Source: Candidatus Woesearchaeota archaeon (lineage in GTDB: Archaea > Nanobdellota > Nanobdellia > Woesearchaeales > JAGVYU01). Taken from it: a stretch of 64,000 bases of DNA. The DNA lies in NCBI GenBank assembly GCA_018303105.1, contig JAGVYU010000061.1:3109-67108 (forward strand), written 5' to 3'. The notes beneath the pieces were generated by a model. That model had not been told where the DNA came from. It saw nothing but the letters and a program-made list of their open reading frames with translations, and ran no database searches. A program made the position numbers and the translations under genes. Positions 4,739 through 59,806 of the stretch are shown one piece after another. Position 1 is the first letter of the stretch. The number at the start of each line of letters is the position of its first letter.

Positions 4739-4789
4739 TCGGGTTGAGCGCAGGGGCTATTTAAAGATTGTGACATAAGTTAGTAAGAT

Positions 4790-5045
4790 TTGATTTGTAT
4801 TTCTTGCACGCCACCATGTCGGCGGCTTACGGCCATGCATCGCATGGCCTACTCGCCACCCCGGATGTCTAAGAAATCGAAGATTTCTGAGATCTTAAAA
4901 ATTGCAGAGCAATTTTTCAGAGGGCATCCCCCGGCTCGTCCAGCGCCGACGTGGCGTGCGGCGAGGGTGGGGATGCGCCGTCCGGGCTCCCGAGCAGGAC
5001 AGATTTACGAAGTAAATCTGGACGTCGCACCGCCACTGTCGGCGC
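4790..5045 (+). ncRNA. Candidate GC-rich structured non-coding RNA of unknown class, strand uncertain
   Basis: This is the highest-GC non-coding stretch in the window. It holds several perfect hairpins: GGCCATGC/GCATGGCC at 4831-4849, AGAAATC-GAA-GATTTCT at 4872-4888, AAAAATTGC-AGA-GCAATTTTT at 4896-4916, GCATCCCC...GGGGATGC at 4924-4976, and CAGATTTAC-GAA-GTAAATCTG at 5000-5020. The only ORFs here are Arg-rich shadow frames. Confidence 0.3.
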
Positions 5046-5113
5046 AAATATTGTTAACAACTGAAGATCATTGACCACAATCCTTATAAACTGCGTTCCG
5101 TTCCATAAACTCA

Positions 5114-5452
5114 ATGCAAAGAAAACCGTTCAGGCAACCTGAAGCGCCCGAGGCGCAGATTGCACGCATATTTTTACCGCGTGATAAGCAGGTATTCGGA
5201 CTTCTTGAGCAGAGGCTTGGCGCTTCGCGAATCAGAGTGCGCTGCCTTGATGGCAAGACTCGGATCTGCAGGATTCCAGGAAGGCTCAAGAGGAAGTTAT
5301 GGGTGCGTGAGGGCGATATCGTGATTGTGGAGCCCTGGGAGTTTGGGGGAGACGCGAAAGGCGATGTCGTGTACAAGTATACGCCCACGCAAGTGCAGTT
5401 TTTGAAGAATAAGGGCTATCTGAAACAGCTTGATGAGTTCTCAGAGTTTTAA
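5114..5452 (+). CDS. eif1a: Translation initiation factor aIF-1A
   Basis: GKTRICRIPGRLKRKLWVREGDIVIVEPWEF is the S1-like OB fold of eIF-1A. A TATA-like cttataaa box sits about 25 nt upstream, consistent with a leaderless mRNA. Confidence 0.9.
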   Translation: MQRKPFRQPEAPEAQIARIFLPRDKQVFGLLEQRLGASRIRVRCLDGKTRICRIPGRLKRKLWVREGDIVIVEPWEFGGDAKGDVVYKYTPTQVQFLKNKGYLKQLDEFSEF

Positions 5453-7083: not shown

Positions 7084-7244
7084 GGCTTGAGTTGTTTTTG
7101 GAGGATTTATAAATTCGCACTATTCAGAACGGAAACTTTTCGGACATCAAATTGTTTATTCAAAATTGTGTCGAAATACCTCGAAAAATATCCGAATTTT
7201 ATTGGGAAAGATATATTAAGGGGAAGATCATAAGATATAAATAG

Positions 7245-12913: not shown

Positions 12914-13233
12914 ACCTCTTTTTCAATATAGCTACGGAAACCACTATTTAAAGGTTACGAGCGAAGTTAAGATGAATGAATCGTTTGTTAGAAGGCAACA
13001 ACAAGAATGGCTTCGGACGACCTCATTGCATTCGGCCTCCTCGGGACTCCGGAGGTTATGGAAATCGCAAATTTCCAGAACTTCTGGAAACCCTTCAGGT
13101 TTCCATAAGAGCCAACCCTCCCCTCGGCCTCGCCTACGGCGCCAGAACTGGAGTTGAAGTCCGCCGCCTGCAACCGGCGCCGCGGTGACCACATTTAGAG
13201 GGTTTTGTAGTCATCTCTATAGATAGCAAATCC

Positions 13234-34972: not shown

Positions 34973-35093
34973 TATTCGACTGCATTAGAATGAACCGGGA
35001 ATCATGTTTGCAAAGCGGAGATTTCATGCTGCGCCAGCGCAACCTTTATATAGACACTGGATTTTCTCTTGTATACGATTTTCGGGGGTTACC

Positions 35094-35321
35094 ATGAACG
35101 AATTATCACGGCCATTGGACGCGCTCAATAAAGCACGAGACAAACGCGTCATTGTAGAGCTTAAGAACGGCAGGCAGTACGTTGGAAAGCTGCACGCATT
35201 CGACATCCACATCAACGTTGTCCTGCATGAAGCGGAGGAGCGCGTTGACGGCGAGGTTAAGCGCAAGCTCGGCGTCACGTTCATCAGGGGCGACACGATC
35301 ATTATGATTTCTGCAGAGTAG
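35094..35321 (+). CDS. Sm-like archaeal protein (LSm)
   Basis: RVIVELKNGRQYVGKLHAFDIHINVVLHEAEE...GDTIIMI carries the Sm1 and Sm2 motifs. The start is taken at the internal Met. A tttatata box lies about 45 nt upstream. Confidence 0.85.
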   Translation: MNELSRPLDALNKARDKRVIVELKNGRQYVGKLHAFDIHINVVLHEAEERVDGEVKRKLGVTFIRGDTIIMISAE

Positions 35322-35328
35322 ATGATCC

Positions 35329-35499
35329 ATGAGCAAAGGAACAGCGTCCATGGGTGTTAAGTCTGGCAAGAAGAATCATATCTATTGCAGACGCTGTGGG
35401 AGAAAGACGTATCACCTTACTCGAAAGCGCTGCTCAAGCTGCGGGTATGGAAAGAGTGCCCGAATCAGAGCATACACGTGGGCTAAGAAGAAGCATTAG
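35329..35499 (+). CDS. rpl37e: 50S ribosomal protein L37e
   Basis: [56 protein letters not shown] is a C4 zinc ribbon typical of L37e. This frame was not listed in the track because of length. Confidence 0.85.
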
Positions 35500-36196
35500 C
35501 GCGTTCTACGCAAAACGATTTTGGCTCGGATTCCTTGATGAGATCACAGGCTGATTCATTCTGCTGGAGCCGGGCGATTCTCGAGATGCATGTCACCCGC
35601 AAGCCGAAATCCTCAATCGTGAGGCATCCTGACGTATTCTGCGTCTTTGTATAAACACGAAATTTACAGCCTTGTGCCTCATATGAATTATCGATGAATG
35701 AGCAGATGGAATCCGTTGTCGTGTTGACTGCAACTTTGTTATAACATTCATTGCGGTCTACGCCTTCATCGACCTCATGGCAGAGCTCTATGTTATTTGT
35801 CGCAATGCCAATATTCTTAAAGCATACATCCGACCAGTATGAGTTCGTGAGGTCATAACAATCATTCCCTGCAAGCTGCTCCTGAGCAACCCCGGCGAAG
35901 CAAAAATTCCTGCGCTTGTCATCCACAACAGATGCACATATCGACTTGTTCATCGTCTGAACGCCTATCTCCGCAGTGCACTGATCCCTGAATTTTTGAT
36001 CCGTCACTTGCGCACAGAGCTCAAGGGAGTGTGCCGAGACCGCGGTGTCAGCATAACAGTTCTGCCTATCCGTGTCTGAAGAGAATTGTTTGCACGGATC
36101 AGGTGTGCACGCTACAAGGAGCGCGAGCATCCCAAAGAGTAATAGTAACCGCATACAGCTGCGGAAAAAAACGAGTTTATAAAAGTTATGGAACAT
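35483..36196 (-). CDS. Cys-rich secreted lipoprotein
   Basis: The signal peptide [16 protein letters not shown] ends in a lipobox, and the protein has about 20 Cys. The true start is probably the internal MRLLL. Confidence 0.5.
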
Positions 36197-36225
36197 TTAT
36201 ATATATTTCCGATTCAAAGACGCGC

Positions 36226-37929
36226 ATGAAGATCTCGCCCATATTCACATTTGGAATAGTTGTCTTTCTTGCCGCGGTGCTTATGTATGTCAACACGATC
36301 CCAAATGAGTTTGCATGGGATGACCGCGACTTTATTTTTGAGAATCCGCAGATTACGTCGCTCTCAAATGTCCCCAGCTTCTACGTTACAGAGTCAAGCC
36401 ATGGGCTTTGGAGGCCACTGCGCGAAACGGTATACGCATTGACGTATGCTATATGGAAATTGAATCCTGTTGGTTATCATATAAATGGCATTGTGTTACA
36501 TGCGTTCATTTCTTTGTTATGTTACGGTATTACGCTAAGACTTTCCAAAAAACCTATGCTTGCATTATTTACTGGGTTATTGTTTGCAGTGCATCCCCTC
36601 CACACAGACAGAGTCACGAACATGACCGCGGGATTTGACCTCTGGGGGATATTGTTTATGCTCCTTGCATTCTATGTGTTCATTAGATATCGCGAGTCTG
36701 CAAAAATTTCGTTGTATGGAGCAAGCCTCATCATGCTCATACTTGCGTTGTTGGCGTCGGAGGAAGCAGTCGTGTTCGTTCTTCTGCTGCTGCTCTTTGA
36801 TTTTGTGTATACGTATGGTTGGAGCCTCAGAAAAACTGTTGCATCATGGAGATCATATGTCCCGTTCATCCTTATCACGCTGCTCTTTGTTTTTGCGCAC
36901 ATCATGATCGTGGGCAGAGTCGGACGCGCATCACATTATTTTTACAATAGCTTTTTAGCCACACAACTCACGAGCATTAAAGCGCTGGCACTCTATGTTG
37001 GATATTTCTTTCTCCCATTCAAGCTGACGATCCACCATGAACTCGCGGCTACCACGTCATTGCTCAGCATTCCACTGCTCATCTCCACCATTGTGCTGCT
37101 CGCGCTCTTCGTTCTCGTATGGGCATCGTATAAGAAAAACAAAATTATCTTTTTCTCGATCGCGTGGTTTTTCATCACGATGCTCCTGTTCATGAACTTC
37201 CTGCCTAAGCCAACGATCTTTGCTGAACGGTATGCGTATCTCGCGTCATTCGGGTTTTGCCTGGCGGTTGCCTATGGATTACATCAACTAACTTCACAGA
37301 AGAAGTCTAAGTTCCTGGGATTTGCGCTCATTCTTTTGATCGTCATTGCGTTCAGTGCCCGTACGTATGCGCGAAACATGGACTGGCGTGACGAGGAAAC
37401 ACTGCTCGTGAAAACGCTCGAAACCTCCCCACTCAGCACGAGCGCGCACTCCGACATTGGGGAATTCTACAAACGCGCAGGAGATTTTGAAAAAGCGGAG
37501 GAGCATTTGCTTAGAGCCGCAGAATTGTCACGGAATAATTTCCGGGCGCGGGATGAGTTAGGAACACTCTACGCCGAGCAGCAGCGCTATGACCTCGCGG
37601 AACAATACCTTATAGAAGCTATTGATGCCTACCAAGAGGACGATCGCGGGTATTACAAAGGGTACAACGACCTCGGAGTGCTCTATCTGCGCTGGGGAAA
37701 GATTGATGAGGCCATATTCACCCTGAAAAAAGCCATTGCAATTCGGCCAGATTTCGCAAAAGCACATCATGACATGGGGCTCGCATACGCGCAGAACGGA
37801 TTACTCGAGGAAGCGGAGCAGGAAATGCGAACCGCGATCGCGATTAATCCTTATGAACCCATGTATCAAAACAATTTGCGTATCCTTCTAGAAAAACGTA
37901 AAAGCTTAAATACGGAAGAATCGCCGTGA
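36226..37929 (+). CDS. TMTC-like GT-C membrane glycosyltransferase with C-terminal TPR repeats
   Basis: It has about 11 TM segments and a first-loop acidic motif NEFAWDDRDFIFEN (DD/DE as in PMT/TMTC GT-C enzymes), then at least 6 TPR units. The start is taken at MKISPIF, not the upstream GTG. Confidence 0.65.
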   Translation: MKISPIFTFGIVVFLAAVLMYVNTIPNEFAWDDRDFIFENPQITSLSNVPSFYVTESSHGLWRPLRETVYALTYAIWKLNPVGYHINGIVLHAFISLLCYGITLRLSKKPMLALFTGLLFAVHPLHTDRVTNMTAGFDLWGILFMLLAFYVFIRYRESAKISLYGASLIMLILALLASEEAVVFVLLLLLFDFVYTYGWSLRKTVASWRSYVPFILITLLFVFAHIMIVGRVGRASHYFYNSFLATQLTSIKALALYVGYFFLPFKLTIHHELAATTSLLSIPLLISTIVLLALFVLVWASYKKNKIIFFSIAWFFITMLLFMNFLPKPTIFAERYAYLASFGFCLAVAYGLHQLTSQKKSKFLGFALILLIVIAFSARTYARNMDWRDEETLLVKTLETSPLSTSAHSDIGEFYKRAGDFEKAEEHLLRAAELSRNNFRARDELGTLYAEQQRYDLAEQYLIEAIDAYQEDDRGYYKGYNDLGVLYLRWGKIDEAIFTLKKAIAIRPDFAKAHHDMGLAYAQNGLLEEAEQEMRTAIAINPYEPMYQNNLRILLEKRKSLNTEESP

Positions 37930-37933
37930 ATGC

Positions 37934-39610
37934 ATGAAAAAGCACATTCTGTCCATCATTCTCATCCTCGTCCTAACGCTCATCGCGTACGGGAATATTT
38001 TTTCGAACGAATTCGTTTGGGATGATCGGATTTATCTTGAGGAGAATCTTGTCATAAGGTCTTTAGCGAACACGCCCACCTTTTTTGTAACTCCTACACA
38101 CGGGAATCTCTACAGACCACTGCGCAGTGTCCTGCAGGCGTTCGTTTTTTCCATATGGGAGTTTGATGTGTTCGGATACCACCTTAATGCGTTGCTTTTA
38201 CACATGATAGCGAGCGTTCTCGTTTACGTTATTGTGCTCAAGCTATTTCAAAAAAGAAAACTGGCGCTCTTCACCGGAATTTTATTCGCCGTGCATCCTA
38301 TCCACACAGACAGAGTCACAAATATGACTGCGGGATTTGATCTGCTTGGAATTGTACTCATGCTTGCCGCGTTTCTCGCATATCTTCTCTATAAGGAATC
38401 CCGAAAGAAGATTCCACTAGTAATCAGCATTGTGTTATTCGTTCTCGGGCTTTTCTCAAGCGAGGAGGCGTTCATGCTGCCATTCCTCATCTTGCTCTAT
38501 GAGTTAGCGTTTGCGAAAACAACGCTCATGGAAAGAGCCCGTGAACTTGCCAAGCATAAGGCGCTCTATGTGTTTCCCGCGCTTCTTGTTCTTTACTTGA
38601 TCATTCGCATCGCCGTCACAGGAAGTCTTGGACGTGCTGCCCAATATCCTGCCGGAACATTCTCAGCAACGATAGTCATCACGATCAAAATCCTCGCTCA
38701 TTACCTCGGCCTGCTCATCCTTCCCATCAATCTGTCGCTTCAGCGCGTAGTTCCCGTGGCAACATCGCTCTTTGATCCTCTTGTGTTTATCTCTCTCCTA
38801 CTACTTCTTGCATTGATTGCTGTCGCATTTTGGTCGCGAACGCGACGGCCCATCATCTTCTTCGCGATCGGATGGTTTTTTCTCACGCTAGTCCCCTTCA
38901 TGAATATCCTCCCAAACTTCTCGCTCATGGAAGAACGGTATACATACGTTGCAAGCATCGGTTTTTGTTTGCTTATCGCATACGCATTCACGCTTGCATA
39001 TCAAAAAAAGGAGTGGAAAATCCCTACGCTTGTCGTTTTCGCATTGGTTTTGATCCTCTACACGGTGGGAACGATGCAGCGTAACGCGGAATGGAGAGAC
39101 GACATCACGCTCTGGGAACGCACGGTAATCACCTCGCCGAACAGCGCACGGGCTTGGGACAACCTTGGGCAGAGTTACGAAGCACTCGGCAGGTTTGATG
39201 ACGCGCTTGAGGCGATTGATACGTCGTTAACAATAGACGAGAATAACGCATTCGCGCATAACAACCTTGGCATTGTATTTGCAGAAAAAGGCCTCTATAA
39301 TTATTCCATCGCTGAGTTTCTCATCGCTATTGAGCTTGAGCCTAATTACGCTCGGGCGTATGACCATCTGGGGCTTGCATATCTGCGATTGAATGATACG
39401 GACAAGGCCATAGCGGCATTCGCAACCGCGATCCAACTTGAACCGGGACTTTACAAAGCATACAATGACCTGGGAACAGCATTAGTGTATACAGGAGAAA
39501 TGGACCGCGCTGAACTCGCGTTTCAGCAAGCGCTCAAAATCAACCCGCGCTATGAAGCAGCGCAGAAGAACCTGGAATCATTGCAGCGTCTGAAGGCGAA
39601 GACGCAATGA
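37934..39610 (+). CDS. TMTC-like GT-C membrane glycosyltransferase with C-terminal TPR repeats (tandem paralogue)
   Basis: Same architecture as the upstream gene. It carries NEFVWDDRIYLEEN, HPIHTDRVTNMTAGFDLLG (compare HPLHTDRVTNMTAGFDLWG in the upstream copy), and TPRs at the C-terminus. Confidence 0.65.
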   Translation: MKKHILSIILILVLTLIAYGNIFSNEFVWDDRIYLEENLVIRSLANTPTFFVTPTHGNLYRPLRSVLQAFVFSIWEFDVFGYHLNALLLHMIASVLVYVIVLKLFQKRKLALFTGILFAVHPIHTDRVTNMTAGFDLLGIVLMLAAFLAYLLYKESRKKIPLVISIVLFVLGLFSSEEAFMLPFLILLYELAFAKTTLMERARELAKHKALYVFPALLVLYLIIRIAVTGSLGRAAQYPAGTFSATIVITIKILAHYLGLLILPINLSLQRVVPVATSLFDPLVFISLLLLLALIAVAFWSRTRRPIIFFAIGWFFLTLVPFMNILPNFSLMEERYTYVASIGFCLLIAYAFTLAYQKKEWKIPTLVVFALVLILYTVGTMQRNAEWRDDITLWERTVITSPNSARAWDNLGQSYEALGRFDDALEAIDTSLTIDENNAFAHNNLGIVFAEKGLYNYSIAEFLIAIELEPNYARAYDHLGLAYLRLNDTDKAIAAFATAIQLEPGLYKAYNDLGTALVYTGEMDRAELAFQQALKINPRYEAAQKNLESLQRLKAKTQ

Positions 39611-39999
39611 GAGAAAGAATTTCTGCCATCATCATCAAAGACAAAAAGATCCTCCTCGTCACAGGATATGATGAATCCTTTTATTGGACGCCGGGAGGGA
39701 AAGTGGAACCAGGAGAATCGCACCAAGAGGCGATGAAGAGGGAACTTAAAGAGGAGATATCCGTCAAACTCGTTGAGATGCGCCCATATTGTGCGTACAA
39801 GGCAACGAACGAGACAACCGGACAACCTCAAAAAGTTCACTGTTATCTTGTTGAGATTAAAGGAACTCCTTCCCAAAAAGCGGAGCTGACAAAAAGCATG
39901 TGGTGTTCATCTCAGGATATTTTGACTGGAAAGACCAAAGTATCCAAAAGGATATCTTCTCAACTCTTGCCAAGACTAATGAAGGATAAAATTCTTTGA
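39607..39999 (+). CDS. NUDIX hydrolase
   Basis: The Nudix box is GGKVEPGESHQEAMKRELKEEISV (Gx5Ex7REUxEExGU). Confidence 0.8.
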   Translation: MRERISAIIIKDKKILLVTGYDESFYWTPGGKVEPGESHQEAMKRELKEEISVKLVEMRPYCAYKATNETTGQPQKVHCYLVEIKGTPSQKAELTKSMWCSSQDILTGKTKVSKRISSQLLPRLMKDKIL

Positions 40000-40050
40000 G
40001 ATGCTTCTAAGAAATGTTTATAAGGGCTGTGCAATTTATGATTTTAGTAA

Positions 40051-40134
40051 GCGGGGATGCCGGAGAGGTCAAACGGGCTACGTTCAGGGCGTAGTAGCTT
40101 AGTGCTTACGGGGGTTCGAATCCTCCTCCCCGCA
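40051..40134 (+). tRNA. tRNA-Leu (anticodon CAG), class II with long variable arm, no encoded CCA
   Basis: The acceptor stem pairs GCGGGGA with TCCCCGC. The D arm is CCG/CGG around an 11-nt loop. The anticodon stem is CTACG/CGTAG with loop TTCAGGG, giving CAG with G37. The variable arm has an AGC/GCT stem. The T arm is GGGGG-TTCGAAT-CCTCC. The discriminator is A. Confidence 0.75.
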
Positions 40135-40258
40135 GCCTTTTTACAAAAAAGTCTGGCCAAAAAGAAGGGAGTTGAACTCACGTTCAAGCTCCCTAAGTTT
40201 AATTCGTGGGCTCGAGCGGTAGCGAGACCCACAGACGCCAGCGGGCTTCCGCTGGTGG

Positions 40259-40275
40259 GAATCCTCCTCCCCGCA
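40259..40275 (+). repeat. Direct repeat of the tRNA-Leu 3' end (GAATCCTCCTCCCCGCA; other copy at 40118-40134)
   Basis: An exact 17-nt repeat. The 3' flank is similar in both copies (A-rich linker plus hairpin), but the 5' side has no acceptor or T-arm partner, so the second copy is not a functional tRNA. Confidence 0.5.
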
Positions 40276-40359
40276 ATCCTTTTAAAAAAAGGCTTGACCG
40301 AAAAAAGAGGGTTGCTCTCACGAGCAAGCCCTCTGAGTGTTTTTTGAGGGCTTGAGGTG

Positions 40360-41121
40360 TTATTTACTTACTTTTTTGGCGATCACAAGAAAGCGTTCAT
40401 CCGTAAACGCTAGGAGCTCACCTTGATCTAGACGAGTTTGGAGGTTGTACAGTACTGACTTATATTTGTCTACTGTAAATCCAGGCACAATCCACGGGAT
40501 CGCCTTGAGAAAATACACGATTGCGCCAACATCATGGAAGACCCGTTTGCCGGACCATTCCTCCGACTTCACAATGGTGAGACCATCTGAAGTCAGATTT
40601 TTCTGAACTTTCGCTGCTCCCCAGTCCGATTTTTTCTTAACTCTGAAGAGTGAAATCAAATCATGGAGGTTTTTACCTCCGACTTGCTGCGTACAAAAGA
40701 CTCCGTTAGGCTTTAGGAGACGCCTTATTTCGACAGCGTTAAAGGTGCCATGTCTGTTCAGAATGACATCAAAATACCCCTCTGGAAATGAAAGAGGGGC
40801 GTCCCCCATACAATGAATAACGTGTATGCCGAGCGGTGAAAGCCTTCTCTTTGCCAATTCATAATTTGGTGCGTATCCCTCTGTCGCATACATTTTCGTT
40901 GGAAGCGGCTTGAGAGAGCTGAGAAATTCGCCTCCCCCCGTTTCCAAATCAATTGCTGACTCAGCATTTGCCAAATACTCGCGCACAATATCGGTGTAAT
41001 CCCAAGGAGGTGATTCAGATGCCATTCGGTTCCGAATGTAAGAAAAATCCCAACCGTGCATAGGTGCAGATTCATCATGCCTCCACCGCTCAAGCAAAAT
41101 TTCAGCACTGTTTTTCTTCAT
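40360..41121 (-). CDS. Class I SAM-dependent methyltransferase
   Basis: It has a glycine-rich motif I region (IDLETGGGEFL) and size and fold-level features of a Methyltransf_11/23-type enzyme. Confidence 0.55.
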   Translation of the reverse strand: MKKNSAEILLERWRHDESAPMHGWDFSYIRNRMASESPPWDYTDIVREYLANAESAIDLETGGGEFLSSLKPLPTKMYATEGYAPNYELAKRRLSPLGIHVIHCMGDAPLSFPEGYFDVILNRHGTFNAVEIRRLLKPNGVFCTQQVGGKNLHDLISLFRVKKKSDWGAAKVQKNLTSDGLTIVKSEEWSGKRVFHDVGAIVYFLKAIPWIVPGFTVDKYKSVLYNLQTRLDQGELLAFTDERFLVIAKKVSK

Positions 41122-41837
41122 TTACCGTATCTCCCCATCACATCATTCCACCGTATCCTCAAAAGATCAAGCATCATCTTCATGGGATCTCTTAAAATTC
41201 GCACTTTAGAGTTCGGATCATTTCTCCATGACACCGGAACCTCTTTGATGGAATAGCCATGTTTTTGTGCAAGGTAGAGTAATTCGACGTCAAACGCCCA
41301 GCCATGCAAACGCTGCTGTTTGACAAGCTTCTTTGCAATAGCTGTTTTGAACAGTTTAAATCCGCATTGAGTATCCTGTATTCCCTTTACTCCCAGCATG
41401 CGAACGAGTAATGGGAAGAGTTTTCCCATTGAGCTTCTCAGGAAAGGTTGCGGCTTCGTGATTTTCGATTCTGGAAGGTTCCTTGAGCCGACCACAATAT
41501 CATATTTAAGATACTGGGAAAACACATCAAGGGTATGTATGGGTGTGGAATGGTCCGCGTCGCAGAACAGTACGTGAGGCATTTTTGCAGCAAGAATTCC
41601 TTTTTTTACTGCGCTGCCTTTACCCTCATTACTGCTTCCACGAATGACTCGTATAGGTGCCTTGCTTTGGGTTGCGGCGTTACGAGCAACAGACGCCGTG
41701 CTATCCGCGCTTCCGTCATCAACTACAATTATCTCGTAAACGATATTTCGCTTCCTGCAGTATGCTATGATATCTGTCAATGTCTTTCGAATTCGTTTCT
41801 CTTCATTATATGCGGGAATAACGATTGAAAGCCTCAC
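41118..41837 (-). CDS. Family 2 glycosyltransferase (dolichyl-phosphate sugar synthase-like)
   Basis: MRLSIVIPAYNEE...IIVVDDGSADST is the GT-A DxD-type N-terminus, and a conserved QCGFK-type block follows. It overlaps the upstream MTase gene by 4 nt. Confidence 0.8.
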   Translation of the reverse strand: MRLSIVIPAYNEEKRIRKTLTDIIAYCRKRNIVYEIIVVDDGSADSTASVARNAATQSKAPIRVIRGSSNEGKGSAVKKGILAAKMPHVLFCDADHSTPIHTLDVFSQYLKYDIVVGSRNLPESKITKPQPFLRSSMGKLFPLLVRMLGVKGIQDTQCGFKLFKTAIAKKLVKQQRLHGWAFDVELLYLAQKHGYSIKEVPVSWRNDPNSKVRILRDPMKMMLDLLRIRWNDVMGRYGK

Positions 41838-42285
41838 ACAGTAACTAAAAGTTAGGTTATATAAATATTATATGAAGCGATTTACTAATTACTAGTAAGA
41901 ATTGCTGGGTATCGAATATAATCCGAAACATTTTATACTCTAAAGGGATCCTTATAAAAGGAAGAGCAAAATAAGCGCGGTTCCCGCAAGAAAAGGGGGG
42001 TCTTGGTCAAACACCATCAAAAAGTAACAACGGTCTATAAACTGCCTTTCTGGCATTAATAGCGATCAAGGTTGCCTTGTACTGCATAAAAAAGCCATTT
42101 TTTGCGAAATGTTTATAAGCCAGTTTTTTCTCTATGCCTAAATAGCCAGTTAGAACTATCAAATATAGGTTCTCCAATGGGTATATTGGAGTGTCTAGAG
42201 TACGCAGAAAGGCTTAAATACGAAAAACCTTTCACTGGCATAAAACTCAATGAGAGGGGTGTAACAATCACCCAACCACAAGGAG

Positions 42286-44910
42286 GTGTGTAGATTGAGA
42301 CTAAGTAAAGCGATTAAGAAGGTCGCTGCAGTCGGCATTGGTGCATCAATGATCGGCGCTACACTATTCGGTGCAGCAGCAGCAAACCTAAGCGAGTATC
42401 CGTCGCCGTTCGTCATGGACGGTAAGTTTAACGGCATTCTCGTTGTAGGAACTGGAGGAACGGATGCGGCCGGACTCGCAGCCGATATTATCGGCGTGAC
42501 CGACATCATCAGCAGCCTGCAGTTCGCAAGCACGACACCTGGAACCGGTGCGAAGAAATCAGTAACGGTACAGGGAGACTCGTGGAAAGTAGGAACCGCA
42601 ACGAAGAAGCTTGAGATAAGCAACGAATGGACGAACAGTTCTGGAAGCCGAGAAAACTTCAAGAGCCAAATTGATTTCATCGATGATGGTGATTTGGACG
42701 CATTGAAGTCGGGAAGTGTTGACAACACGAAAGGAAACGCGCAGTACAACCAATACTTGCGATTCCGCAACTCAACAACCGGCGGCGCGAAAGACACAGG
42801 ATATGTCGTGTACAAGGAAGATAGCGACAACAATGTCGGAGACTTCCTCTTCTTTAAGAGCGGCCAAGAAATAGCGCAATATGAGATGGAGTTTACGTCT
42901 TCATTTGACTCAGACGTTGAAGATTCCGGTGGAGCAGTTACTTCAACGGGAACGTATCTGTCTGATTACGAAGATGAGACGATCACCCTCTTGGGCAAGG
43001 AGTACACAATCGTGAAAGCACGAGTACCTACCGCTGGAGCTTGGCATGGCATGGAGCTCACGTTGATGGGTGGAGCCGTAAAGGACATCCTCCAGGAAGG
43101 CGAGACAAAGACGTATACTATCGCTGGCAAGCCGTACGAGGTTACTGTTGACGCGATCACGGACCAAGGCACAATCATTGCCAAGTTCACCGTGAACGGC
43201 GAGTCGACAAAATCCATTTCGGATGGTGACTCGGACAAACTTGCAGACGGAACAGAGATTGGCGTAACCGATCTTATTCCGAACGAGGCAGGAGACGTCA
43301 CGCAGGATCTCGTTGAGTTCTTCATCGGAGCCCAAAAGGTCGTGTTGAAGGATACAAACATCAGCGTTGTTGGAACAGGAGACACCGCGATCAAGGTGAA
43401 TGATGAAAGCATTGATGGATCTCTTGTAACCATTAAGGGTACACCAACAGCAACTGAGAGCCAGGTCAACAACATCCTCGTGAACATGGATGCTGATGAT
43501 GACTACTATGTCCCTGCAGGCAAGAAACTCAGTGAAGTCATTGCAGCAGAGGGTGATGAGAAAGAAGTTCTCTTCACGAACAACTGGGACATCGAGTACC
43601 TTGGCTTAGAGGAAGCAGAGGCAGAAGAGATCAGCATCAAGACGAGCGGCAAAGACAAGTATAGGCTCAGCTTTATGGACTGGGGCGGAAATCTTGTCCA
43701 AGCACCATTAGCGTACGCATCCGCAGCAAGTGTCCTGAAGATGGGAGACGATGATGACGACTTTATCATCAACGAAAGCCGAAACGTCAGCAAAGATGAC
43801 TACTTCATCATAACGGACGCGACGAAAGATGCTGGAGAGCGACCAACGTACCTGCTGCGCTACAAGGGAGCTGACAAGTCAACGGACGAAAACCCGAAGT
43901 TTAAAATCGAGAACGTCGGTTCAAAAGAGACTCTAGAAAAGACGTACACAGCAGCTGGCGGATCAGCTACGGCTACCTTCAATATTGGAGGAGGCTCATA
44001 TAAGGTTGAGAACCACGAAGCCATTACAAGCAACGACTTCTCAATCAAGGTCGACCTTGATGGAGACGGAACCATTAACGAGTCGAACGCGGTCTCAATA
44101 ACCACACGTGCAGGTGCCCAAATAGCGATAGCGGGCAACCAGACAGGTGGAGCCGCGACAATTGATCTTGCCGATAAGCTAACGGTAACGATCAGCACAC
44201 CTGATTCGGACGACTACGAGGACCTGACACCAGCAAACATCCAATACAACATCTCAGCAACGTCTGATACAGAAGTTGACCTGACAAAGTTGGATGTCTA
44301 TAGCCTTGTGACACCAGACGACGAGGACAACGTGCAGTACGGATACAACTCACTTGGTGCGTTCATTAAATACACAAACCCATCAAGCGACCCCGATGAG
44401 CTCATCATCGACTATCCAGAAGCGCAGAGACTGCCTCAGGTGTACATCACCTCGGGAGCATCCTCGAGTTCAGGTGGCGTAGGAGCGGGCTCTGAAAACG
44501 TCAACATCAATAAGATTGAAGTTGGCGCTGCAAAGCTCGACAAGGACGTCAGCTCAGCGGATCTCGCGGCGAACAACGTGCTATCCATCGGTGGATCTTG
44601 CGTCAACGCTATCAGCGCAGAGATCATGGGTCTTGAAGCAGGAACCTGTGGCGCGGCCTCAGGAATCCCGCAAAACAAGGCTTTGATCAAGCTGTTCGAG
44701 AACGGTGAGAAGGTTTCCATGGTCATCGCAGGTTGGACTGCTGAAGACACACAGAGAGCATCGAGAGTCCTTGCAAATTACGAGGACTATGCACTCAGTG
44801 GCATGGAAGTCGAAGTGACTGGAACGAGCTTGTCTGACATCTCCGTAGGAGCACCTTCCCCAGTGATGGAAGAAGAAGAAGCCCCTGCTGAAGACGAAGC
44901 AGCTGAATAA
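42286..44910 (+). CDS. S-layer protein of the Methanococcales/Thermococcales type (S_layer_N plus S_layer_C)
   Basis: A signal peptide is followed by ILVVGTGGTDAAGLAADIIGVTDIISSL, the S_layer_N hallmark. The C-terminus carries ALIKLFENGEKVSMVIAGWTAEDTQRASRVLANYEDY, the S_layer_C hallmark, and an acidic tail. A GGAGGTG Shine-Dalgarno-like element lies 5 nt upstream. The start may instead be the TTG at 42295. Confidence 0.8.
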   Translation: MCRLRLSKAIKKVAAVGIGASMIGATLFGAAAANLSEYPSPFVMDGKFNGILVVGTGGTDAAGLAADIIGVTDIISSLQFASTTPGTGAKKSVTVQGDSWKVGTATKKLEISNEWTNSSGSRENFKSQIDFIDDGDLDALKSGSVDNTKGNAQYNQYLRFRNSTTGGAKDTGYVVYKEDSDNNVGDFLFFKSGQEIAQYEMEFTSSFDSDVEDSGGAVTSTGTYLSDYEDETITLLGKEYTIVKARVPTAGAWHGMELTLMGGAVKDILQEGETKTYTIAGKPYEVTVDAITDQGTIIAKFTVNGESTKSISDGDSDKLADGTEIGVTDLIPNEAGDVTQDLVEFFIGAQKVVLKDTNISVVGTGDTAIKVNDESIDGSLVTIKGTPTATESQVNNILVNMDADDDYYVPAGKKLSEVIAAEGDEKEVLFTNNWDIEYLGLEEAEAEEISIKTSGKDKYRLSFMDWGGNLVQAPLAYASAASVLKMGDDDDDFIINESRNVSKDDYFIITDATKDAGERPTYLLRYKGADKSTDENPKFKIENVGSKETLEKTYTAAGGSATATFNIGGGSYKVENHEAITSNDFSIKVDLDGDGTINESNAVSITTRAGAQIAIAGNQTGGAATIDLADKLTVTISTPDSDDYEDLTPANIQYNISATSDTEVDLTKLDVYSLVTPDDEDNVQYGYNSLGAFIKYTNPSSDPDELIIDYPEAQRLPQVYITSGASSSSGGVGAGSENVNINKIEVGAAKLDKDVSSADLAANNVLSIGGSCVNAISAEIMGLEAGTCGAASGIPQNKALIKLFENGEKVSMVIAGWTAEDTQRASRVLANYEDYALSGMEVEVTGTSLSDISVGAPSPVMEEEEAPAEDEAAE

Positions 44911-44950: not shown

Positions 44951-45242
44951 TTGATGCGAATTCTGGGAGATTGATTGGGAGTAAAGTATCCAAATAAGGC
45001 CCTTTGCGAACTCCATGCAATCCCTGTCTTTGCGAGCCAGCCATGGCGGCGGCGAGGGAGGGGATGGTTGCCGAGCGAAGCGAGCGCAACTAGGAAAATC
45101 CATGATTTTCCGTGCTCCATACGGGAATCCCGAGCAGGGCATTTTGTGCAGCAAAATGACCGTCGCCCGCCATGATTGGCTGGCTCATCCTAAATACCTG
45201 CCGCCTGACTGTGATTTTATCAACAACATTTAAATAGAAAAC

Positions 45243-49775: not shown

Positions 49776-50084
49776 ATGAAGAAACCTAAAGAGGTTAACC
49801 GATATTGTCCTTTTTGCAAGAAACATACTTCGCATAAAGTTTCTCAATCGAAGAAAAGGCAGGCGAGCTCTTTGACATACGGAAGCAAGTATCGAGCACG
49901 TCTTCGAGGGAAAGCCCGCGGCCTTGGCAATCTCGGAAGATATTCTAAGCCCGCAGTCACGAAATTCAAGCGCGCCGGAAAAAAATCAACGAAGAAGACA
50001 GATCTTCGGTATGAATGCAAGGTGTGCAAGAAGCAGCATACGCAGAAAAAAGGATTCAGGGCAAAGCGCGTTGAGTTTGTGTAA
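49776..50084 (+). CDS. rpl44e: 50S ribosomal protein L44e
   Basis: RYCPFCKKHTSHKV...KKTDLRYECKVCKKQH is a C4 zinc ribbon with the characteristic KKTDL block of L44e/L36a. Confidence 0.9.
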   Translation: MKKPKEVNRYCPFCKKHTSHKVSQSKKRQASSLTYGSKYRARLRGKARGLGNLGRYSKPAVTKFKRAGKKSTKKTDLRYECKVCKKQHTQKKGFRAKRVEFV

Positions 50085-51133: not shown

Positions 51134-51236
51134 TCGATTGCAACACCCCAACTGGCTTCGGACGGCCTTCGGCCTCCGCGGGAGCCCGGAGGGCGCGTCC
51201 CCACCCGCGGCCTCGCCAGTGGTGTTGCATACATTA
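51134..51236 (+). ncRNA. Candidate structured small RNA of unknown class, about 100 nt
   Basis: An atatattttt TATA-like box at 51101-51110 would place the start near 51134. A 15-bp terminal stem pairs TGCAACACC[CCA]ACTGGC with GCCAGTGGTGTTGCA. It encloses a three-way junction carrying a GGCC-TTC-GGCC hairpin and a CCGCGGG/CCCGCGG stem. GC is far above local background. ACA lies 1-2 nt 3' of the closing stem. Confidence 0.35.
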
Positions 51237-51665
51237 ACTTCTATGATATGCTGTCGCGATATGCTCAACAGAATTCCTTATGCGGTTCTTATGAGTTCTT
51301 CTTAACGTCGTGACATCACCATGGAGATTCGCATGGAACCTTCTGCTCTGGTCAAGCTCGCGCAATAATAAGTCACGCTGCTTAGCGTCTTTGGGAGTTG
51401 CGTGTTTTTTATGATCAATATCCCTTATACGCCCTCTGAGATCGGACTCCAAGGTTCGAATGGATGCGGCGAGCTTCATGTTTTTTATGGCGATAATCGA
51501 AGCGAGCGCGTGCAATAACTCAACCTCCTGCTTCATGCGGTTAACGCGCTGCACAATATCCGTTGTATAATGCCGGTGCTGCTCAGACTGGATGAGGATC
51601 TGTGCTGTTTCCAGAATTTTTTTTGAAAGGTCAATATCGCTTGATAGGATTGACAGGGCTGCCAT
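51234..51665 (-). CDS. Hypothetical coiled-coil protein
   Basis: ORF with heptad periodicity. The start is taken at MAALSIL. Confidence 0.35.
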   Translation of the reverse strand: MAALSILSSDIDLSKKILETAQILIQSEQHRHYTTDIVQRVNRMKQEVELLHALASIIAIKNMKLAASIRTLESDLRGRIRDIDHKKHATPKDAKQRDLLLRELDQSRRFHANLHGDVTTLRRTHKNRIRNSVEHIATAYHRS

Positions 51666-51764
51666 ACCACACCTCGTTTTCAAGGATTGAGCGCATCTTG
51701 TTTAAAAAGATTTCCCACCGGAATGTTTTTATTTGCTCTTATACTTCTCTGATTATGGAAGAAA

Positions 51765-57860: not shown

Positions 57861-58497
57861 TTTTCTATTAAGCTTATTTTTTGTTTTAATAATGGCTATT
57901 AGCAAGTTTCTTATTATTTATTCATGGTGCCTAACTTCGCATATTGGCTCACTTTTCATATTGGGATATGCAAGACTGCTGCGTATGCTGAGAATCGCAG
58001 ATTGTTTGTCTTCAAATATTTTTTTACGCTAGTTATTAGTAAAACATGATTTTGGCATCGGGCATAATATCACTAGTTATTAGTATAAGATACCCAATAA
58101 ACTTTTCCACTAATTGTTATAGGAATTGTTCTTGATATATTCGATATTGTGCTTCTAATTTGATTCTGCTTTAAACTAGTTTTTGCTCTCACTTTTTATG
58201 CGTAAACAGCAAATTCAAACAATTGTTTTCATTATTGTAATTTATTAAATTATTTGTAGAAGAATTAGTAATAGATTATTTAAGTTATGATTAAAATATT
58301 TAGACTATTATATTTTTGAAAATTCCCTTTTTTAAGGCACATTGTATGCACATCCATGTCCAGAGTCACTTGGCTTCAAAATGTGGTTTATCGTCGACAA
58401 AAGGCACTGCCCAAAAAGCTTAAATAGGAGAAAGAATCAGCAGGCATTGGTAAGTACAAGTATTCTTGAGTGATTAACCATGAGGTGAGTTAAGTTG

Positions 58498-59137: not shown

Positions 59138-59806
59138 ATGTGGGTTGTTTTCATGGCTAGAACGTATAATGAGTATTATCTCGGATGGCAGGAGATTAAC
59201 AGGATCATAGCCTGTGCCAAGAACCTCAAAGAGCGGGTAATTCTAAAGATTCTGGCGAGAACAGGCATGCGAAGATTCGAGCTTGCAAATCTTCGCGTAA
59301 AAGACGTCGATTTTGACCGCAAGCGCATCTATATCAGCAAGGGAAAAGGAGGAACTGACGAGGATCCAAAATCGAGGATCGTTCCTATCGACGATGACAC
59401 CCTTCAAGATATCAAGTTTTATCTCGAAGGACGCCGGGCCGGAATATTGATCCAGAGCAATAAAAAAGCGCATGACGGCATCTCTTTATCCGCAATAAAC
59501 AGGATTACCGAAGGGGCTGCTGAACGGGCAGGAATCCGGAATCCTAATCCAAAGCTTAAGCATCTCAATCCCCATATCTTCAGGCACAGTTTCTCACGGC
59601 TCAGCCTCATGGAGGGCATTCCCTTCAACATTGTGCAGAAAATTGTTGGACACGCCGATGCGCGAACAACGCTGCAAATGTACGGAGTACCGTCGATAAA
59701 TGACGCTCAGCATATGTACAACGAAAAGCTGACTATGCGCTTTCACCAAAAAGTGAGCCTTGAGGAAGATAACAAGCTTTCAAAATTTACGTCTGACAGA
59801 TCGTAA
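59138..59806 (+). CDS. Minimal tyrosine recombinase/integrase (catalytic domain only)
   Basis: The catalytic residues are R in TGMRRFEL, K in ISKGKGG, HxxR in HIFRHSF, the second R in HADARTT, and the nucleophile Y in LQMYG. No N-terminal SAM-like core-binding domain is present. Confidence 0.8.
   Translation: MWVVFMARTYNEYYLGWQEINRIIACAKNLKERVILKILARTGMRRFELANLRVKDVDFDRKRIYISKGKGGTDEDPKSRIVPIDDDTLQDIKFYLEGRRAGILIQSNKKAHDGISLSAINRITEGAAERAGIRNPNPKLKHLNPHIFRHSFSRLSLMEGIPFNIVQKIVGHADARTTLQMYGVPSINDAQHMYNEKLTMRFHQKVSLEEDNKLSKFTSDRS

What the first reader, a model, noticed from the sequence alone, without database searches (positions are those of the whole stretch)
4790..5045. GC-rich, hairpin-dense non-coding region: candidate structured RNA
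About 250 bp of non-coding sequence between the RDD gene and eif1a has GC well above background. It contains several perfect 7-9 bp hairpins, two of them with GAA triloops, plus a nested GC-rich multi-stem segment (4924-4985).

The only ORFs here are Arg-rich artefacts of GC composition. Flanking 20-nt segments (CACGCCACCATGTCGGCGG at 4807 and CACCGCCACTGTCGGCG at 5027) are direct repeats of each other. I looked for RNase P CR-I (GGAAAGUCCGGGCUCC) and the SRP helix-8 motif (GGAAGG.AGCA). I found only a partial GUCCGGGCUCC match and no SRP motif, so the class is open.
Basis: seen in the sequence. Interest (0 to 1): 0.55.

Follow-up and report, generated by a model that had tools for sequence, protein, structure and literature searches.

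The report
Back-to-back structured repeat, not RNase P
The GC-rich hairpin cluster between the RDD and eIF1A genes is two back-to-back copies of a previously undescribed ~100-nt repeat in a DPANN (Woesearchaeota-type) archaeon; the repeat keeps a three-armed fold and occurs at least four times in this window, so this is not a classical RNA gene such as RNase P or SRP RNA.

Summary
Window 4806-5045 is GC-rich (0.65-0.68 against 0.44), folds far better than shuffles (z about -6) and lies outside both flanking mRNAs. No Rfam family matches it.

It is not one classical RNA gene. It is a head-to-head dimer of two copies of a ~90-155 nt module: the L-module on the minus strand (4806-4961) and the R-module on the plus strand (4941-5045). 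They share the central 21-mer at 4941-4961.

Each module is a three-way junction: a long bulged closing helix, an arm ending in GGGG-AUG-CYCC-AUCCGGGRU, and a variable hairpin that usually has a C(GAA)G loop.
- Covariation across 24 modules is strong: 14 of 19 pairs change on both sides, 0 of 500 shuffles match.
- Three more copies lie at 12995-13147, 45034-45186 and 51140-51229.
- Strains with identical eIF1A carry four mosaic alleles.
- Each module ends 34-46 nt upstream of the BRE/TATA of the co-oriented gene.

Best reading: a new REP/BIME- or attC-like repeat whose single-strand fold is conserved. Whether it acts as DNA or RNA is undecided.

The parts
4806..4961 (-). L-module: the repeat copy read on the minus strand. 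It is the '5' domain' of a plus-strand reading.
   Evidence: Covariance model R2 scores 55.8 bits here on the minus strand. The same minus-strand match is found in every homologous locus at 59-84 bits.
4941..5045 (+). R-module: the repeat copy read on the plus strand. It is a three-way junction closed by 4943-4959 pairing with 5027-5045.
   Evidence: 112 bits with model R1 and 102 bits with R2. Folding with the covarying helices forced gives the full closing helix.
4941..4961 (.). Shared centre ('apex'), CAGCGCCGACGTGGCGTGCGG. It is the 5' strand of the closing helix of both modules, one on each DNA strand. It is identical in the homologues recovered with it as bait, and varies slightly in other copies (L114, L115, second L083 pair).
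   Evidence: The exact 21-mer, used as the search bait, recovered 10 homologous metagenome loci plus 4 chance hits, so identity among those hits is by construction. Its complementarity to both flanking units is shown.
4806..4826 (.). It is the outer strand that pairs with the centre and closes the L-module, leaving a 3-nt bulge (CAU).
   Evidence: Inverted repeats I7 and I10. The L087 homologue has a different unit a and a matching second centre copy, which is covariation.
5027..5045 (.). It is the 3' strand of the R-module closing helix, with a bulged C and a bulged U.
   Evidence: Inverted repeat I15. Pairs 18-26/101-110 of alignment A3 vary only through G-U wobbles. Copy 2, copy 3 and L074 have different but mutually complementary strands.
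4831..4849 (.). Hairpin A, the variable second arm of the L-module. Its loop reads GAU on the module's own strand.
   Evidence: Repeat I12. Homologues have different stems: GGACAAC/GUUGUC, GGAUGGC/GCCAUCC and GGGUUU/AAACCC.
4868..4922 (.). A 55-nt AT-rich insertion of two hairpins (loops GAA and AGA) in the distal part of the L-module's first arm. It is specific to this strain.
   Evidence: Absent from L001, L114, L115 and L118, although their eIF1A is 99-100% identical. Other copies carry unrelated insertions of 48 and 60 nt at the equivalent site.
4960..4998 (+). First arm of the R-module. GGCGAG-GG (4960-4967) pairs with CC-CGAG (4989-4994) through tandem G.A pairs. The distal part is a small hairpin GGGG-AUG-CGCC (4969-4979) plus the conserved tail GUCCGGGCU (4980-4988).
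   Evidence: Pairs 29-34/56-62 of A3. The G.A/A.G pairs are replaced by U-A/U-A in L094 and by G-C/C-G in copy 3, and the adjacent pairs switch between G-C, C-G and A-U.
4997..5023 (+). Hairpin C, the variable second arm of the R-module. It has a 9-bp AU-rich stem, a C(GAA)G triloop and G.A mismatches at its base.
   Evidence: Repeat I9. The stem is entirely different but still perfectly paired in L001 (CAUUGUGC-GCA-GCACAAUG) and in L092.
4757..4766 (-). TATA box of the RDD gene (CTTTAAATAG on the minus strand, preceded by CACAATC). It lies about 40 nt beyond the 3' end of the L-module.
   Evidence: Sequence and spacing analysis.
5076..5089 (+). BRE-like CACAATCC plus TATA (TTATAA) of eIF1A. 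It lies 39 nt beyond the 3' end of the R-module and about 25 nt before the ATG at 5114.
   Evidence: Sequence and spacing analysis.
45034..45186 (+). Copy 2: a single module with its own closing helix (GAGCCAGCCAUGGCGGC pairing with GCC-C-GCCAU-GAUU-GGCUGGCUC) and a 48-nt insertion at 45067-45114.
   Evidence: 47 bits with R1 and 59 bits with R2. Sequence. Its cognate duplex ranks first of 16.
51140..51229 (-). Copy 3: a minimal ~90-nt module that starts 4 nt after the stop codon of the minus-strand gene 51234-51683.
   Evidence: 25 bits with R1 and 54 bits with R2. Sequence.
12995..13147 (-). Copy 4: a degenerate module of the copy-3 subtype, with a 60-nt insertion and a weakened closing helix.
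   Evidence: 25.5 bits with R2. Sequence.

Best explanation
Window 4806-5045 is a head-to-head dimer of two copies of a dispersed, GC-rich repeat module that keeps its structure rather than its sequence. The family is not in Rfam 15.

Each module folds, as a single strand, into a three-way junction with three parts:
1. A closing helix of about 17-20 bp in two segments, with extra-helical bases on its 3' strand.
2. An arm that carries the conserved GGGG-AUG-CYCC-AUCCGGGRU motif and tolerates large insertions.
3. A short, fast-changing hairpin, usually with a C(GNA)G triloop, framed by G(U/C)AGG and CCGUC.

In the dimer both modules use the same central 21-mer as the 5' strand of their closing helix, one on each DNA strand. 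That shared use would account for how little this 21-mer varies, and it makes the two outer strands look like direct repeats.

I read the family as an archaeal counterpart of the structured intergenic repeats of bacteria: REP/BIME, ERIC and Correia-type elements, and integron attC sites. On this reading, selection acts on the folded single strand. I think that strand is more likely DNA than RNA. The fold would be recognised by a structure-specific enzyme or protein. The copies act as hot spots of recombination and sit at a fixed distance upstream of promoters.

Shown: the family, the fold, the covariation, the dimer architecture, the multiple copies, the mosaic alleles and the promoter spacing.

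Inferred: that the folded strand is DNA rather than RNA, that a partner protein exists, and any effect on the neighbouring promoters.
For: Family and fold
- A covariance model built from ten 3' domains finds three further loci in the window, and it finds the 5' domain of every homologous element on the opposite strand.
- On 24 modules, 89.5% of cells are paired. 14 of 19 pairs change on both sides (63 cells). None of 500 shuffles reaches this, and slid controls pair at only 35-51%.
- Tandem G.A pairs are replaced by Watson-Crick pairs in L094 and in copy 3.
- Closing helices differ between copies but stay complementary. The cognate duplex ranks first for copy 2, copy 3, L087-L and L074.
- G-U outnumbers A-C 18 to 2, so one particular strand folds.

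Repeat-like behaviour
- The window holds 4 loci with 5 modules in 64 kb. Locus L083 holds 5 modules in 4.6 kb.
- Both orientations occur, and degenerate copies exist (copy 4, L088).
- Several metagenome contigs break at the element.
- Ten contigs with identical eIF1A carry four alleles. These show swapped L-modules, a swapped hairpin C, different left flanks and presence or absence of the 55-nt insertion.
- L001 and L092 share the left flank and the element but not the right flank.
- The element is only 84% identical between genomes whose eIF1A genes are 99.4% identical.

Pointers to DNA rather than RNA
- Hairpin loops are mostly triloops of the C(GAA)G, C(GCA)G or GCGAAGC type. From my own knowledge (Hirao et al. 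1992, 1994), these are exceptionally stable in DNA but not in RNA.
- I saw no oligo-T tract after any module and no promoter ahead of R-modules in dimers.

Promoter spacing
- The first TATA-like box lies 36-46 nt beyond the 3' end of all 5 window modules, and 34-46 nt beyond for 10 of 22 modules listed overall (10 of 16 once the six GC-rich L083 modules, none of which has a box at that spacing, are set aside), always co-oriented with the next gene.
- Only 6% of random intergenic positions show this.

Rfam: no match in sensitive mode on five different members.
Against: - No transposase, RAYT, TnpB, reverse transcriptase or integron integrase is encoded near any copy. The window holds only one small tyrosine recombinase, at 59138-59806.
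- I saw no target-site duplications.
- Copies within one genome are far more diverged, especially in the closing helix, than recently moved MITEs or REPs usually are.
- The conserved three-way core with invariant unpaired bases looks more like a functional RNA or a protein-binding site than like a simple palindrome.
- The near-constancy of the 21-mer across organisms of 35-55% GC indicates strong purifying selection, though that 21-mer was also the bait used to find most of them.
- G-U tolerance and tandem G.A pairs fit RNA just as well as DNA.
- The alignment used for the pair counts was fitted to the model, and the 34-46 nt interval was chosen after looking at the data.
Confidence: 0.45

Rival explanations
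1. The modules are RNA elements, either a family of small RNAs or parts of longer transcripts. They would act in cis at the upstream edge of transcription units, for example as read-through barriers, processing sites or 3'-end protectors, in the way REP RNA structures work in bacteria.
For: - Strong covariation, with G-U 18 against A-C 2 and tandem G.A pairs.
- A conserved unpaired motif in the first arm.
- Fixed position and orientation just upstream of the BRE/TATA of the next gene.
- Copy 3 begins 4 nt after the stop codon of a co-oriented gene, so it is probably part of that mRNA.
- An A/T-rich ATAAG/AGTAAG box lies about 25-35 nt upstream of the left end of several dimers and of L074. It could be a weak promoter.
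Against: - No oligo-T terminator follows any module.
- R-modules in dimers have only GC-rich sequence upstream.
- Dimers sit between divergent promoters, where no upstream mRNA arrives.
- Triloops of the GNA type are not favoured in RNA (my own knowledge).
- No expression data are available.
Confidence: 0.28
2. One reading: the whole 4806-5045 segment is one independent plus-strand gene for a ~240-nt trans-acting structured RNA with two domains. The other window copies would be paralogues.
For: - The dimer is conserved as a unit in many organisms, with a near-constant centre.
- L-modules are almost purely Watson-Crick paired, so they also fold when read on the plus strand.
- An A/T-rich box lies upstream of the left end.
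- Constrained folds give a complete 3' domain and a closed 5' domain.
Against: - The 5' domain carries the module's sequence motifs (GUAGG, CCGUC, CAUCCGGGGUG, GNA loop) on the minus strand, not the plus strand.
- In this window's allele the helix called S1 below (5' domain on the plus strand = first-arm helix of the L-module) is broken (CUCGCC against GGCUCG) and a 55-nt insertion is present.
- The alleles are mosaic, and the element is 84% identical next to a gene that is 99.4% identical.
- There is no terminator.
Confidence: 0.15
3. The modules are integron-type attC sites or another single-stranded recombination site used by a tyrosine recombinase.
For: - A two-segment stem with extra-helical bases on one strand, plus a variable terminal structure.
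- Structure is conserved while stem sequence varies.
- Flanks are exchanged exactly at the element between strains.
- Integrons are reported in archaea, including GTDB Nanoarchaeota (PMC9668308).
- A tyrosine recombinase gene lies at 59138-59806.
Against: - The conserved end motifs RYYYAAC and GTTRRRY are absent from the modules of the finding. Only the copy 3/4 subtype has a partial CAAC...GUUG.
- There are no arrays of short co-oriented cassettes. The genes between copies include housekeeping genes.
- The recombinase is only 222 aa, too short for an integron integrase.
- In this family the terminal structure, not the stem ends, is the conserved part.
Confidence: 0.06
4. It is a divergent or circularly permuted housekeeping RNA: RNase P RNA, SRP RNA or 5S rRNA.
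For: - Partial resemblances: GUCCGGGCUCC to CR-I, GGCUUA to CR-V, GAGCAGG to the 3' strand of SRP helix 8, and AGCGCCGA...GCGAGUAGG to bacterial 5S rRNA (and my own recall).
- Permuted SRP RNA genes do exist in Thermoproteus (PMC4731332).
Against: - None of these motifs is conserved in homologues. GGCUUA becomes GGCUGGA, and GUCCGGGCUCC becomes AUCCGGGAAAC.
- No Rfam hit, even at E up to 10 in small search spaces, for the RNase P (including type T), SRP or 5S models.
- The family is multi-copy and occurs on both strands.
- I could not draw a bulge-helix-bulge motif in the terminal helix.
Confidence: 0.02

Closest known systems
Bacterial REP elements and their inverted clusters (BIMEs)
   Same: - GC-rich, multi-copy and intergenic.
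- Selected to fold as a single strand.
- Occur singly or as inverted pairs.
- Mosaic and polymorphic between strains, and hot spots of rearrangement.
- A conserved G(U/C)AG(G) sits just 5' of a hairpin, reminiscent of the REP GTAG.
   Different: - The module is 90-155 nt and a three-way junction, not a 20-40 nt hairpin.
- Its core sequence is conserved across organisms of very different GC content.
- Closing helices differ between copies.
- No RAYT-type transposase was seen.
- The host is an archaeon.
- The module sits at a fixed distance upstream of promoters rather than after the 3' ends of genes.
Integron attC sites, including the archaeal ones of Ghaly et al. 2022 (PMC9668308)
   Same: - A single-strand fold that is conserved while sequence varies.
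- A two-part stem with extra-helical bases.
- A variable terminal structure that accepts insertions.
- Exchange of flanking DNA at the site.
   Different: - No RYYYAAC/GTTRRRY ends.
- No cassette arrays and no integron integrase.
- The conserved part is the terminal three-way core.
Structured MITE-like repeats such as ERIC, Neisseria Correia elements and Bacillus cereus bcr1
   Same: - About 100-150 nt dispersed intergenic repeats.
- Terminal inverted complementarity.
- Compensatory changes that keep the fold.
   Different: - Terminal strands are not conserved between copies.
- No target-site duplication was seen.
- No parent IS is known.
- Back-to-back dimers share one strand.
Classical archaeal structured RNAs (RNase P RNA, SRP RNA, 5S rRNA, tRNA)
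   Same: GC-rich islands in a lower-GC genome, with covarying helices and paired ends.
   Different: No defining motif is conserved, no covariance-model match exists, and the family is multi-copy on both strands.

Membership tests
RNase P RNA (archaeal types A, M, T) | Conserved CR-I and CR-V sequences forming helix P4, detectable with the Rfam RNase P models | tested here: not met
   No hit at E up to 10 in 271-651 nt searches on the window and L001, nor in a 7.3 kb search of four other loci. The CR-I-like GUCCGGGCUCC and the CR-V-like GGCUUA are not conserved in homologues, and they occur in the wrong order.
RNase P RNA (archaeal types A, M, T) | One essential copy per genome | tested here: not met
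   Four loci with five modules in 64 kb, on both strands.
Archaeal SRP (7S) RNA, including permuted forms | Helix 8 with a GNRA loop and the AGCA symmetric loop, matched by the Rfam Archaea_SRP model | tested here: not met
   No Rfam hit. The ...GAGCAGG... stretch is GAGUAGG in many members, and its A, G and C bases are paired in a register fixed by covariation.
Archaeal SRP (7S) RNA, including permuted forms | For permuted genes: a bulge-helix-bulge motif formed by leader and trailer | tested here: not met
   The terminal pairings have single bulges of 1-4 nt on one strand only. I could not draw two 3-nt bulges separated by 4 bp.
5S rRNA | Loop C (CCGAAC) and helix III sequences, matched by Rfam RF00001 | tested here: not met
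   No Rfam hit. CGAAC occurs only by chance, inside one variable helix of L001.
tRNA (including intron-containing or split forms) | Cloverleaf with a T-loop, detected by ARAGORN or Rfam RF00005 | tested here: not met
   ARAGORN finds only tRNA-Leu at 40051-40134. Neither ARAGORN nor Rfam finds a tRNA within any module that was scanned.
REP/BIME | Multi-copy GC-rich intergenic palindromic units, often in inverted pairs | tested here: met
REP/BIME | Unit is a simple 20-40 nt imperfect hairpin with a 5' GTAG | tested here: not met
   The unit is a 90-155 nt three-way junction. G(U/C)AGG does precede the variable hairpin, but that is a resemblance only.
REP/BIME | A cognate RAYT (Y1/HUH) transposase gene in the genome | not testable with these tools
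   None found among 40 window ORFs scanned with Pfam. The whole genome is not available.
MITE | Terminal inverted repeats conserved between copies, and target-site duplications | tested here: not met
   Terminal strands differ between copies. I saw no duplications at the module borders.
Integron attC | R''/R' core sites RYYYAAC ... GTTRRRY at the two ends | tested here: not met
   The ends are GCGCCGAC...GUCGGCGC and GAGCCAGCC...GGCUGGCUC. Only the copy 3/4 subtype has CAAC...GUUG.
Integron attC | Arrays of short co-oriented cassettes next to an IntI gene | tested here: not met
   Copies lie 6-32 kb apart with housekeeping genes between them. The only recombinase is 222 aa.
IS200/IS605-type ends or TnpB/IscB guide RNAs | Adjacent tnpA, tnpB or iscB gene, or a match to the Rfam omega-RNA/HEARO models | tested here: not met
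   No such genes and no Rfam hits.
Kink-turn / k-junction (L7Ae-binding) RNA | Tandem sheared G.A pairs next to a 3-nt bulge, strictly conserved | tested here: inconclusive
   R-type modules can be drawn as a k-junction (bulge GGC, then G.A/A.G). However, the G.A pairs are Watson-Crick in L094, copy 3, L074 and all L-modules.
Riboswitch or 5' UTR element of eIF1A | Lies within the mRNA leader of the regulated gene | tested here: not met
   The BRE/TATA at 5076-5089 lies downstream of the element and about 25 nt before the ATG. Genes downstream of other copies are unrelated.

The most novel reading that the evidence does not exclude
The modules define a new kind of archaeal genetic element. This would be a structure-specific mobile or recombining unit (working through single-stranded DNA or through RNA) that places itself, or is kept, at a fixed position about 40 nt upstream of BRE/TATA, oriented towards the gene. 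It would have an as yet unknown partner enzyme in DPANN archaea. Alternatively, they are a new multi-copy class of ribonucleoprotein RNAs.
Probability: 0.2. Interest if true: 0.85.

Novelty: new variant of a known kind. Interest (0 to 1): 0.66.

Why it matters
DPANN archaea have tiny genomes and very few described non-coding elements. This family has four features that make it worth following up:
- It keeps a defined three-way fold through many compensatory changes.
- It forms dimers that share one strand.
- It marks the points where closely related strains differ in gene order.
- It sits at a constant distance from promoters.

It therefore bears on two open questions: how reduced archaeal genomes rearrange, and whether archaea have counterparts of bacterial REP/BIME or attC-type structured DNA.

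On the practical side, these GC-rich islands break metagenome assemblies and generate spurious Arg/Pro-rich ORFs. A covariance model for them would improve annotation.

Tried and rejected
1. Permuted RNase P RNA, with the CR-V-like GGCUUA upstream of the CR-I-like GUCCGGGCUCC. Rejected because neither motif is conserved in L001 or other homologues.

2. Permuted or circularised SRP RNA with a bulge-helix-bulge motif, as in Thermoproteus. No helix 8 motif and no such motif could be drawn.

3. 5S rRNA with expansion segments. Superficial similarity only, no Rfam hit, and the family is multi-copy. The 5S expansion paper does not mention DPANN.

4. The minimum-free-energy 'rod' fold. Rejected because its middle helix (S1 3' strand pairing with the GGCGAG segment) is not conserved, whereas the competing local helices S1 and P2 (the first-arm helices of the L- and R-modules) covary strongly.

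5. Synteny with eIF1A as a general feature. Only L001 and L074, of the 80 best species-level loci, have a module upstream.

6. Finding more homologues through spurious ORFs that overlap the element. A concatenated six-frame peptide query gave no hit, so one protein search was wasted.

7. Viral origin. All 15 IMG/VR 17-mer hits are chance matches in high-GC coding DNA. No blastn match in phage or plasmid collections.

8. Literature search for the core sequence and for DPANN repeats or non-coding RNAs. Nothing found.

9. Circular RNA with terminal redundancy (unit a equals unit c). Not general, because L087 has unrelated units a and c, each with its own partner.

10. Hammerhead or other small ribozymes, tRNA-like and H/ACA readings. 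The core motifs are absent.

11. An exact-match lookup of the small conserved protein at 49776-50084, meant to fetch strain variants of copies 2 and 3, returned nothing.
Full report
**1. The observation**

- GC is 0.65-0.68 over 4900-5049, against 0.44 for the window.
- There are four perfect hairpins of 7-9 bp, two with GAA loops, and a nested GC-rich palindrome.
- Both strands fold far better than dinucleotide shuffles (z = -6.1 and -5.5).
- The flanking "direct repeats" are real but imperfect.
- A third, inverted copy sits at the centre (4943-4959) and is complementary to both.

Both flanking genes have their own BRE/TATA at leaderless spacing: 4757-4766 on the minus strand for RDD and 5076-5089 for eIF1A. 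The element is therefore not a 5' UTR.

**2. Known RNA families**

Rfam 15 gives nothing for the region in sensitive mode, and nothing for five homologues.

The whole-window search at gathering thresholds also returned nothing. However, that mode missed a tRNA that scores 47.7 bits when searched locally. I therefore rely only on the local searches.

The RNase P-like GUCCGGGCUCC and a CR-V-like GGCUUA are not conserved in relatives.

**3. Relatives**

- The organism is a Woesearchaeota-type DPANN archaeon, judged from the titles of the genomes with the closest eIF1A.
- Of the 80 best eIF1A loci kept, only L001 (eIF1A 99.4% identical at the DNA level) has an obvious homologue upstream. That homologue is only 84% identical and lacks the two AT-rich hairpins.
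- A metagenome scan with the central 21-mer found ten true homologues in unrelated gene contexts, several of them at contig ends, and four chance hits.
- Helices covary by eye: hairpin A, a 6-7 bp helix (S1) with six different sequences, the short helix next to GGCGAG/CGAG, and hairpin C.

**4. The turning point**

A covariance model of the 3' half matched three kinds of target:
- all the 3' halves, at 107-125 bits;
- three further loci in the window;
- the 5' half of every element, but on the opposite strand.

A second model built from 24 matches confirmed this and added a fourth window locus.

The finding is therefore a head-to-head dimer of two modules that share the central 21-mer as the 5' strand of their closing helices. 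That shared use would explain why the centre varies so little (it was also the search bait). It also explains why the two outer strands resemble each other.

Single modules exist with their own, different, mutually complementary closing strands: copy 2, copy 3, L074 and L088/L091.

**5. The module**

The module is a three-way junction.
- The closing helix has two segments, with a 1-4 nt bulge and usually a bulged C on the 3' strand.
- Arm 1 starts with tandem G.A pairs in R-type copies and with Watson-Crick pairs in others. It ends in GGGG-AUG-CYCC followed by the conserved tail (C)AUCCGGGRU.
- Arm 2 is a variable hairpin framed by G(U/C)AGG and CCGUC, mostly with C(GAA)G, C(GCA)G or GCGAAGC loops.

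Pair counts on 24 modules:
- 89.5% of cells are paired.
- 14 of 19 pairs change on both sides (63 cells).
- None of 500 shuffles reaches this.
- Slid controls pair at 35-51%.

The alignment was fitted to the model, which favours the structure. However, the key substitutions are also visible in the plain MAFFT alignment: G.A/A.G to U-A/U-A in L094, G-C to A-U in L090, and C-G/G-C swaps.

G-U outnumbers A-C 18 to 2. R-modules carry the wobbles and the G.A pairs, while L-modules are almost purely Watson-Crick.

Insertions of 48-60 nt of unrelated AT-rich hairpins sit in the distal part of arm 1 in three of the five window modules.

**6. Behaviour as a repeat**

- The window has four loci. Contig L083 has five modules in 4.6 kb.
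- The 78 other eIF1A loci (about 450 kb) have none, so the family is restricted to one lineage.
- Ten contigs encoding the identical eIF1A carry four alleles:
  - the window type, with the insertion;
  - L114, with the same flanks and R-module but an entirely different L-module that has its own compensated helices;
  - L115/L118, with another left flank and no insertion;
  - L001.
- L001 and L092 share the left flank and most of the element but differ from hairpin C onwards, including the right flank. L092's hairpin C resembles that of window copy 2.
- The element is therefore a recombination hot spot and a boundary of synteny.
- No transposase, TnpB, reverse transcriptase or integron integrase is encoded in the window. 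There is one 222-aa tyrosine recombinase.

**7. An unexpected regularity**

In module orientation, the first TATA-like box lies 39, 41, 46, 36 and 43 nt beyond the 3' end of the five window modules. Overall it lies at 34-46 nt for 10 of 22 modules listed (10 of 16 once the six GC-rich L083 modules, none of which has a box there, are set aside). In each case the box has a BRE-like A(C/T)AAC(C) in front and a co-oriented gene start 25-45 nt behind.

Only 6% of random intergenic positions behave this way. That gives P of about 8e-7 for 5 of 5 and 3e-9 for at least 10 of 16. The interval and the 16-module subset were chosen after looking, so these values are optimistic.

The dimer thus points one module at the RDD promoter and the other at the eIF1A promoter.

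**8. Interpretation**

What the thing is seems well supported: a new, multi-copy repeat that conserves structure, present here as a back-to-back dimer with a strain-specific insertion.

How it works is inference. I favour a REP/BIME- or attC-like element whose folded single strand is the selected object. I lean towards DNA for three reasons:
- GNA triloops closed by C-G, and GCGAAGC mini-hairpins, dominate. From my own knowledge these are hyperstable in DNA and not in RNA.
- No oligo-T terminators follow the modules.
- R-modules in dimers have no promoter.

The main rival is an RNA-level role, either as a cis-acting boundary element or as a small-RNA family. The conserved unpaired core, the G-U tolerance and the promoter-proximal, oriented placement fit that equally well.

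Membership in the RNase P, SRP, 5S, tRNA, attC, MITE and IS200/605-related families fails on defining features that I tested.

**9. Limits**

- There are only about 25 modules, and most come from metagenome fragments.
- E-values from the shortened calibration are rough.
- Taxonomic labels come from record titles. L001 is labelled 'Methanosarcinales', which is at odds with its neighbours in the search.
- No expression data were available.

Noticed in passing
window 40051-40134 (+): tRNA-Leu (CAG) is found by ARAGORN and scores 47.7 bits with Rfam RF00005 in a local search. The whole-window Rfam search at gathering thresholds reported zero matches. That mode's filters can therefore miss genuine RNAs in this window.
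   Followed up: partly
window ~7200 onwards; loci L110-L119 downstream of the radical-SAM gene: Strains with identical eIF1A differ in the cassette after the radical-SAM gene. Some carry nucleotidyltransferase+HEPN and others carry MazE+PIN+HD. Homology between the window and L001 ends abruptly near 7200. This is a variable island of toxin-antitoxin-type genes.
   Followed up: partly
L074 2765-2878 (+): A more distant Woesearchaeota genome has a single ~110-nt module (67 bits with R2) directly upstream of its eIF1A gene, with the eIF1A TATA about 60 nt downstream. Placement of the module next to eIF1A therefore recurs outside the close relatives.
   Followed up: partly
L083 147-390, 3015-3107, 4103-4267: A 4.6 kb contig from a 55% GC organism carries two back-to-back dimers and one single module. 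They flank a radical-SAM-like gene and a pair of ORFs that I read, from their sequences alone, as AbiE-like toxin-antitoxin genes. These modules have a much shorter first arm (loop GCCCCU).
   Followed up: partly
window 5076-5089, 4757-4773, 12945-12960, 45219-45236: Promoters in this organism share an extended upstream motif, (C)A(C/T)AAC(C), directly before TTTAAATA or TTATAAA. Many genes appear leaderless, with the start codon about 25 nt after the TATA box.
   Followed up: no
window 4787-4783 (minus strand) and the equivalent flanks of L081, L086, L090, L087, L094: A semi-conserved CTTAC(T) motif (AGTAAG on the other strand) lies about 17-25 nt beyond the module's 3' end, between the module and the BRE/TATA. 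Its role is unknown.
   Followed up: no
window 35322-36030, 57861-58494, 41838-42285, 600-1046: Unusually long stretches (450-700 nt) without a plausible ORF in an otherwise compact window. No Rfam hit in 35000-42400. The other stretches were not examined.
   Followed up: partly
window 59138-59806 (+): A small (222 aa) tyrosine recombinase of the phage-integrase family. It is the only recombinase found among the 40 window ORFs scanned.
   Followed up: no
window 4790-5074 (+), 4917-5114 (-), 45015-45233 (+), 12944-13192 (-): The GC-rich modules create open reading frames of 65-95 codons rich in Arg, Pro and Gly (for example ...PDGASPPSPHATSAL...). Gene callers may report these as hypothetical proteins. 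Two such ORFs are called over the element in L111.
   Followed up: partly
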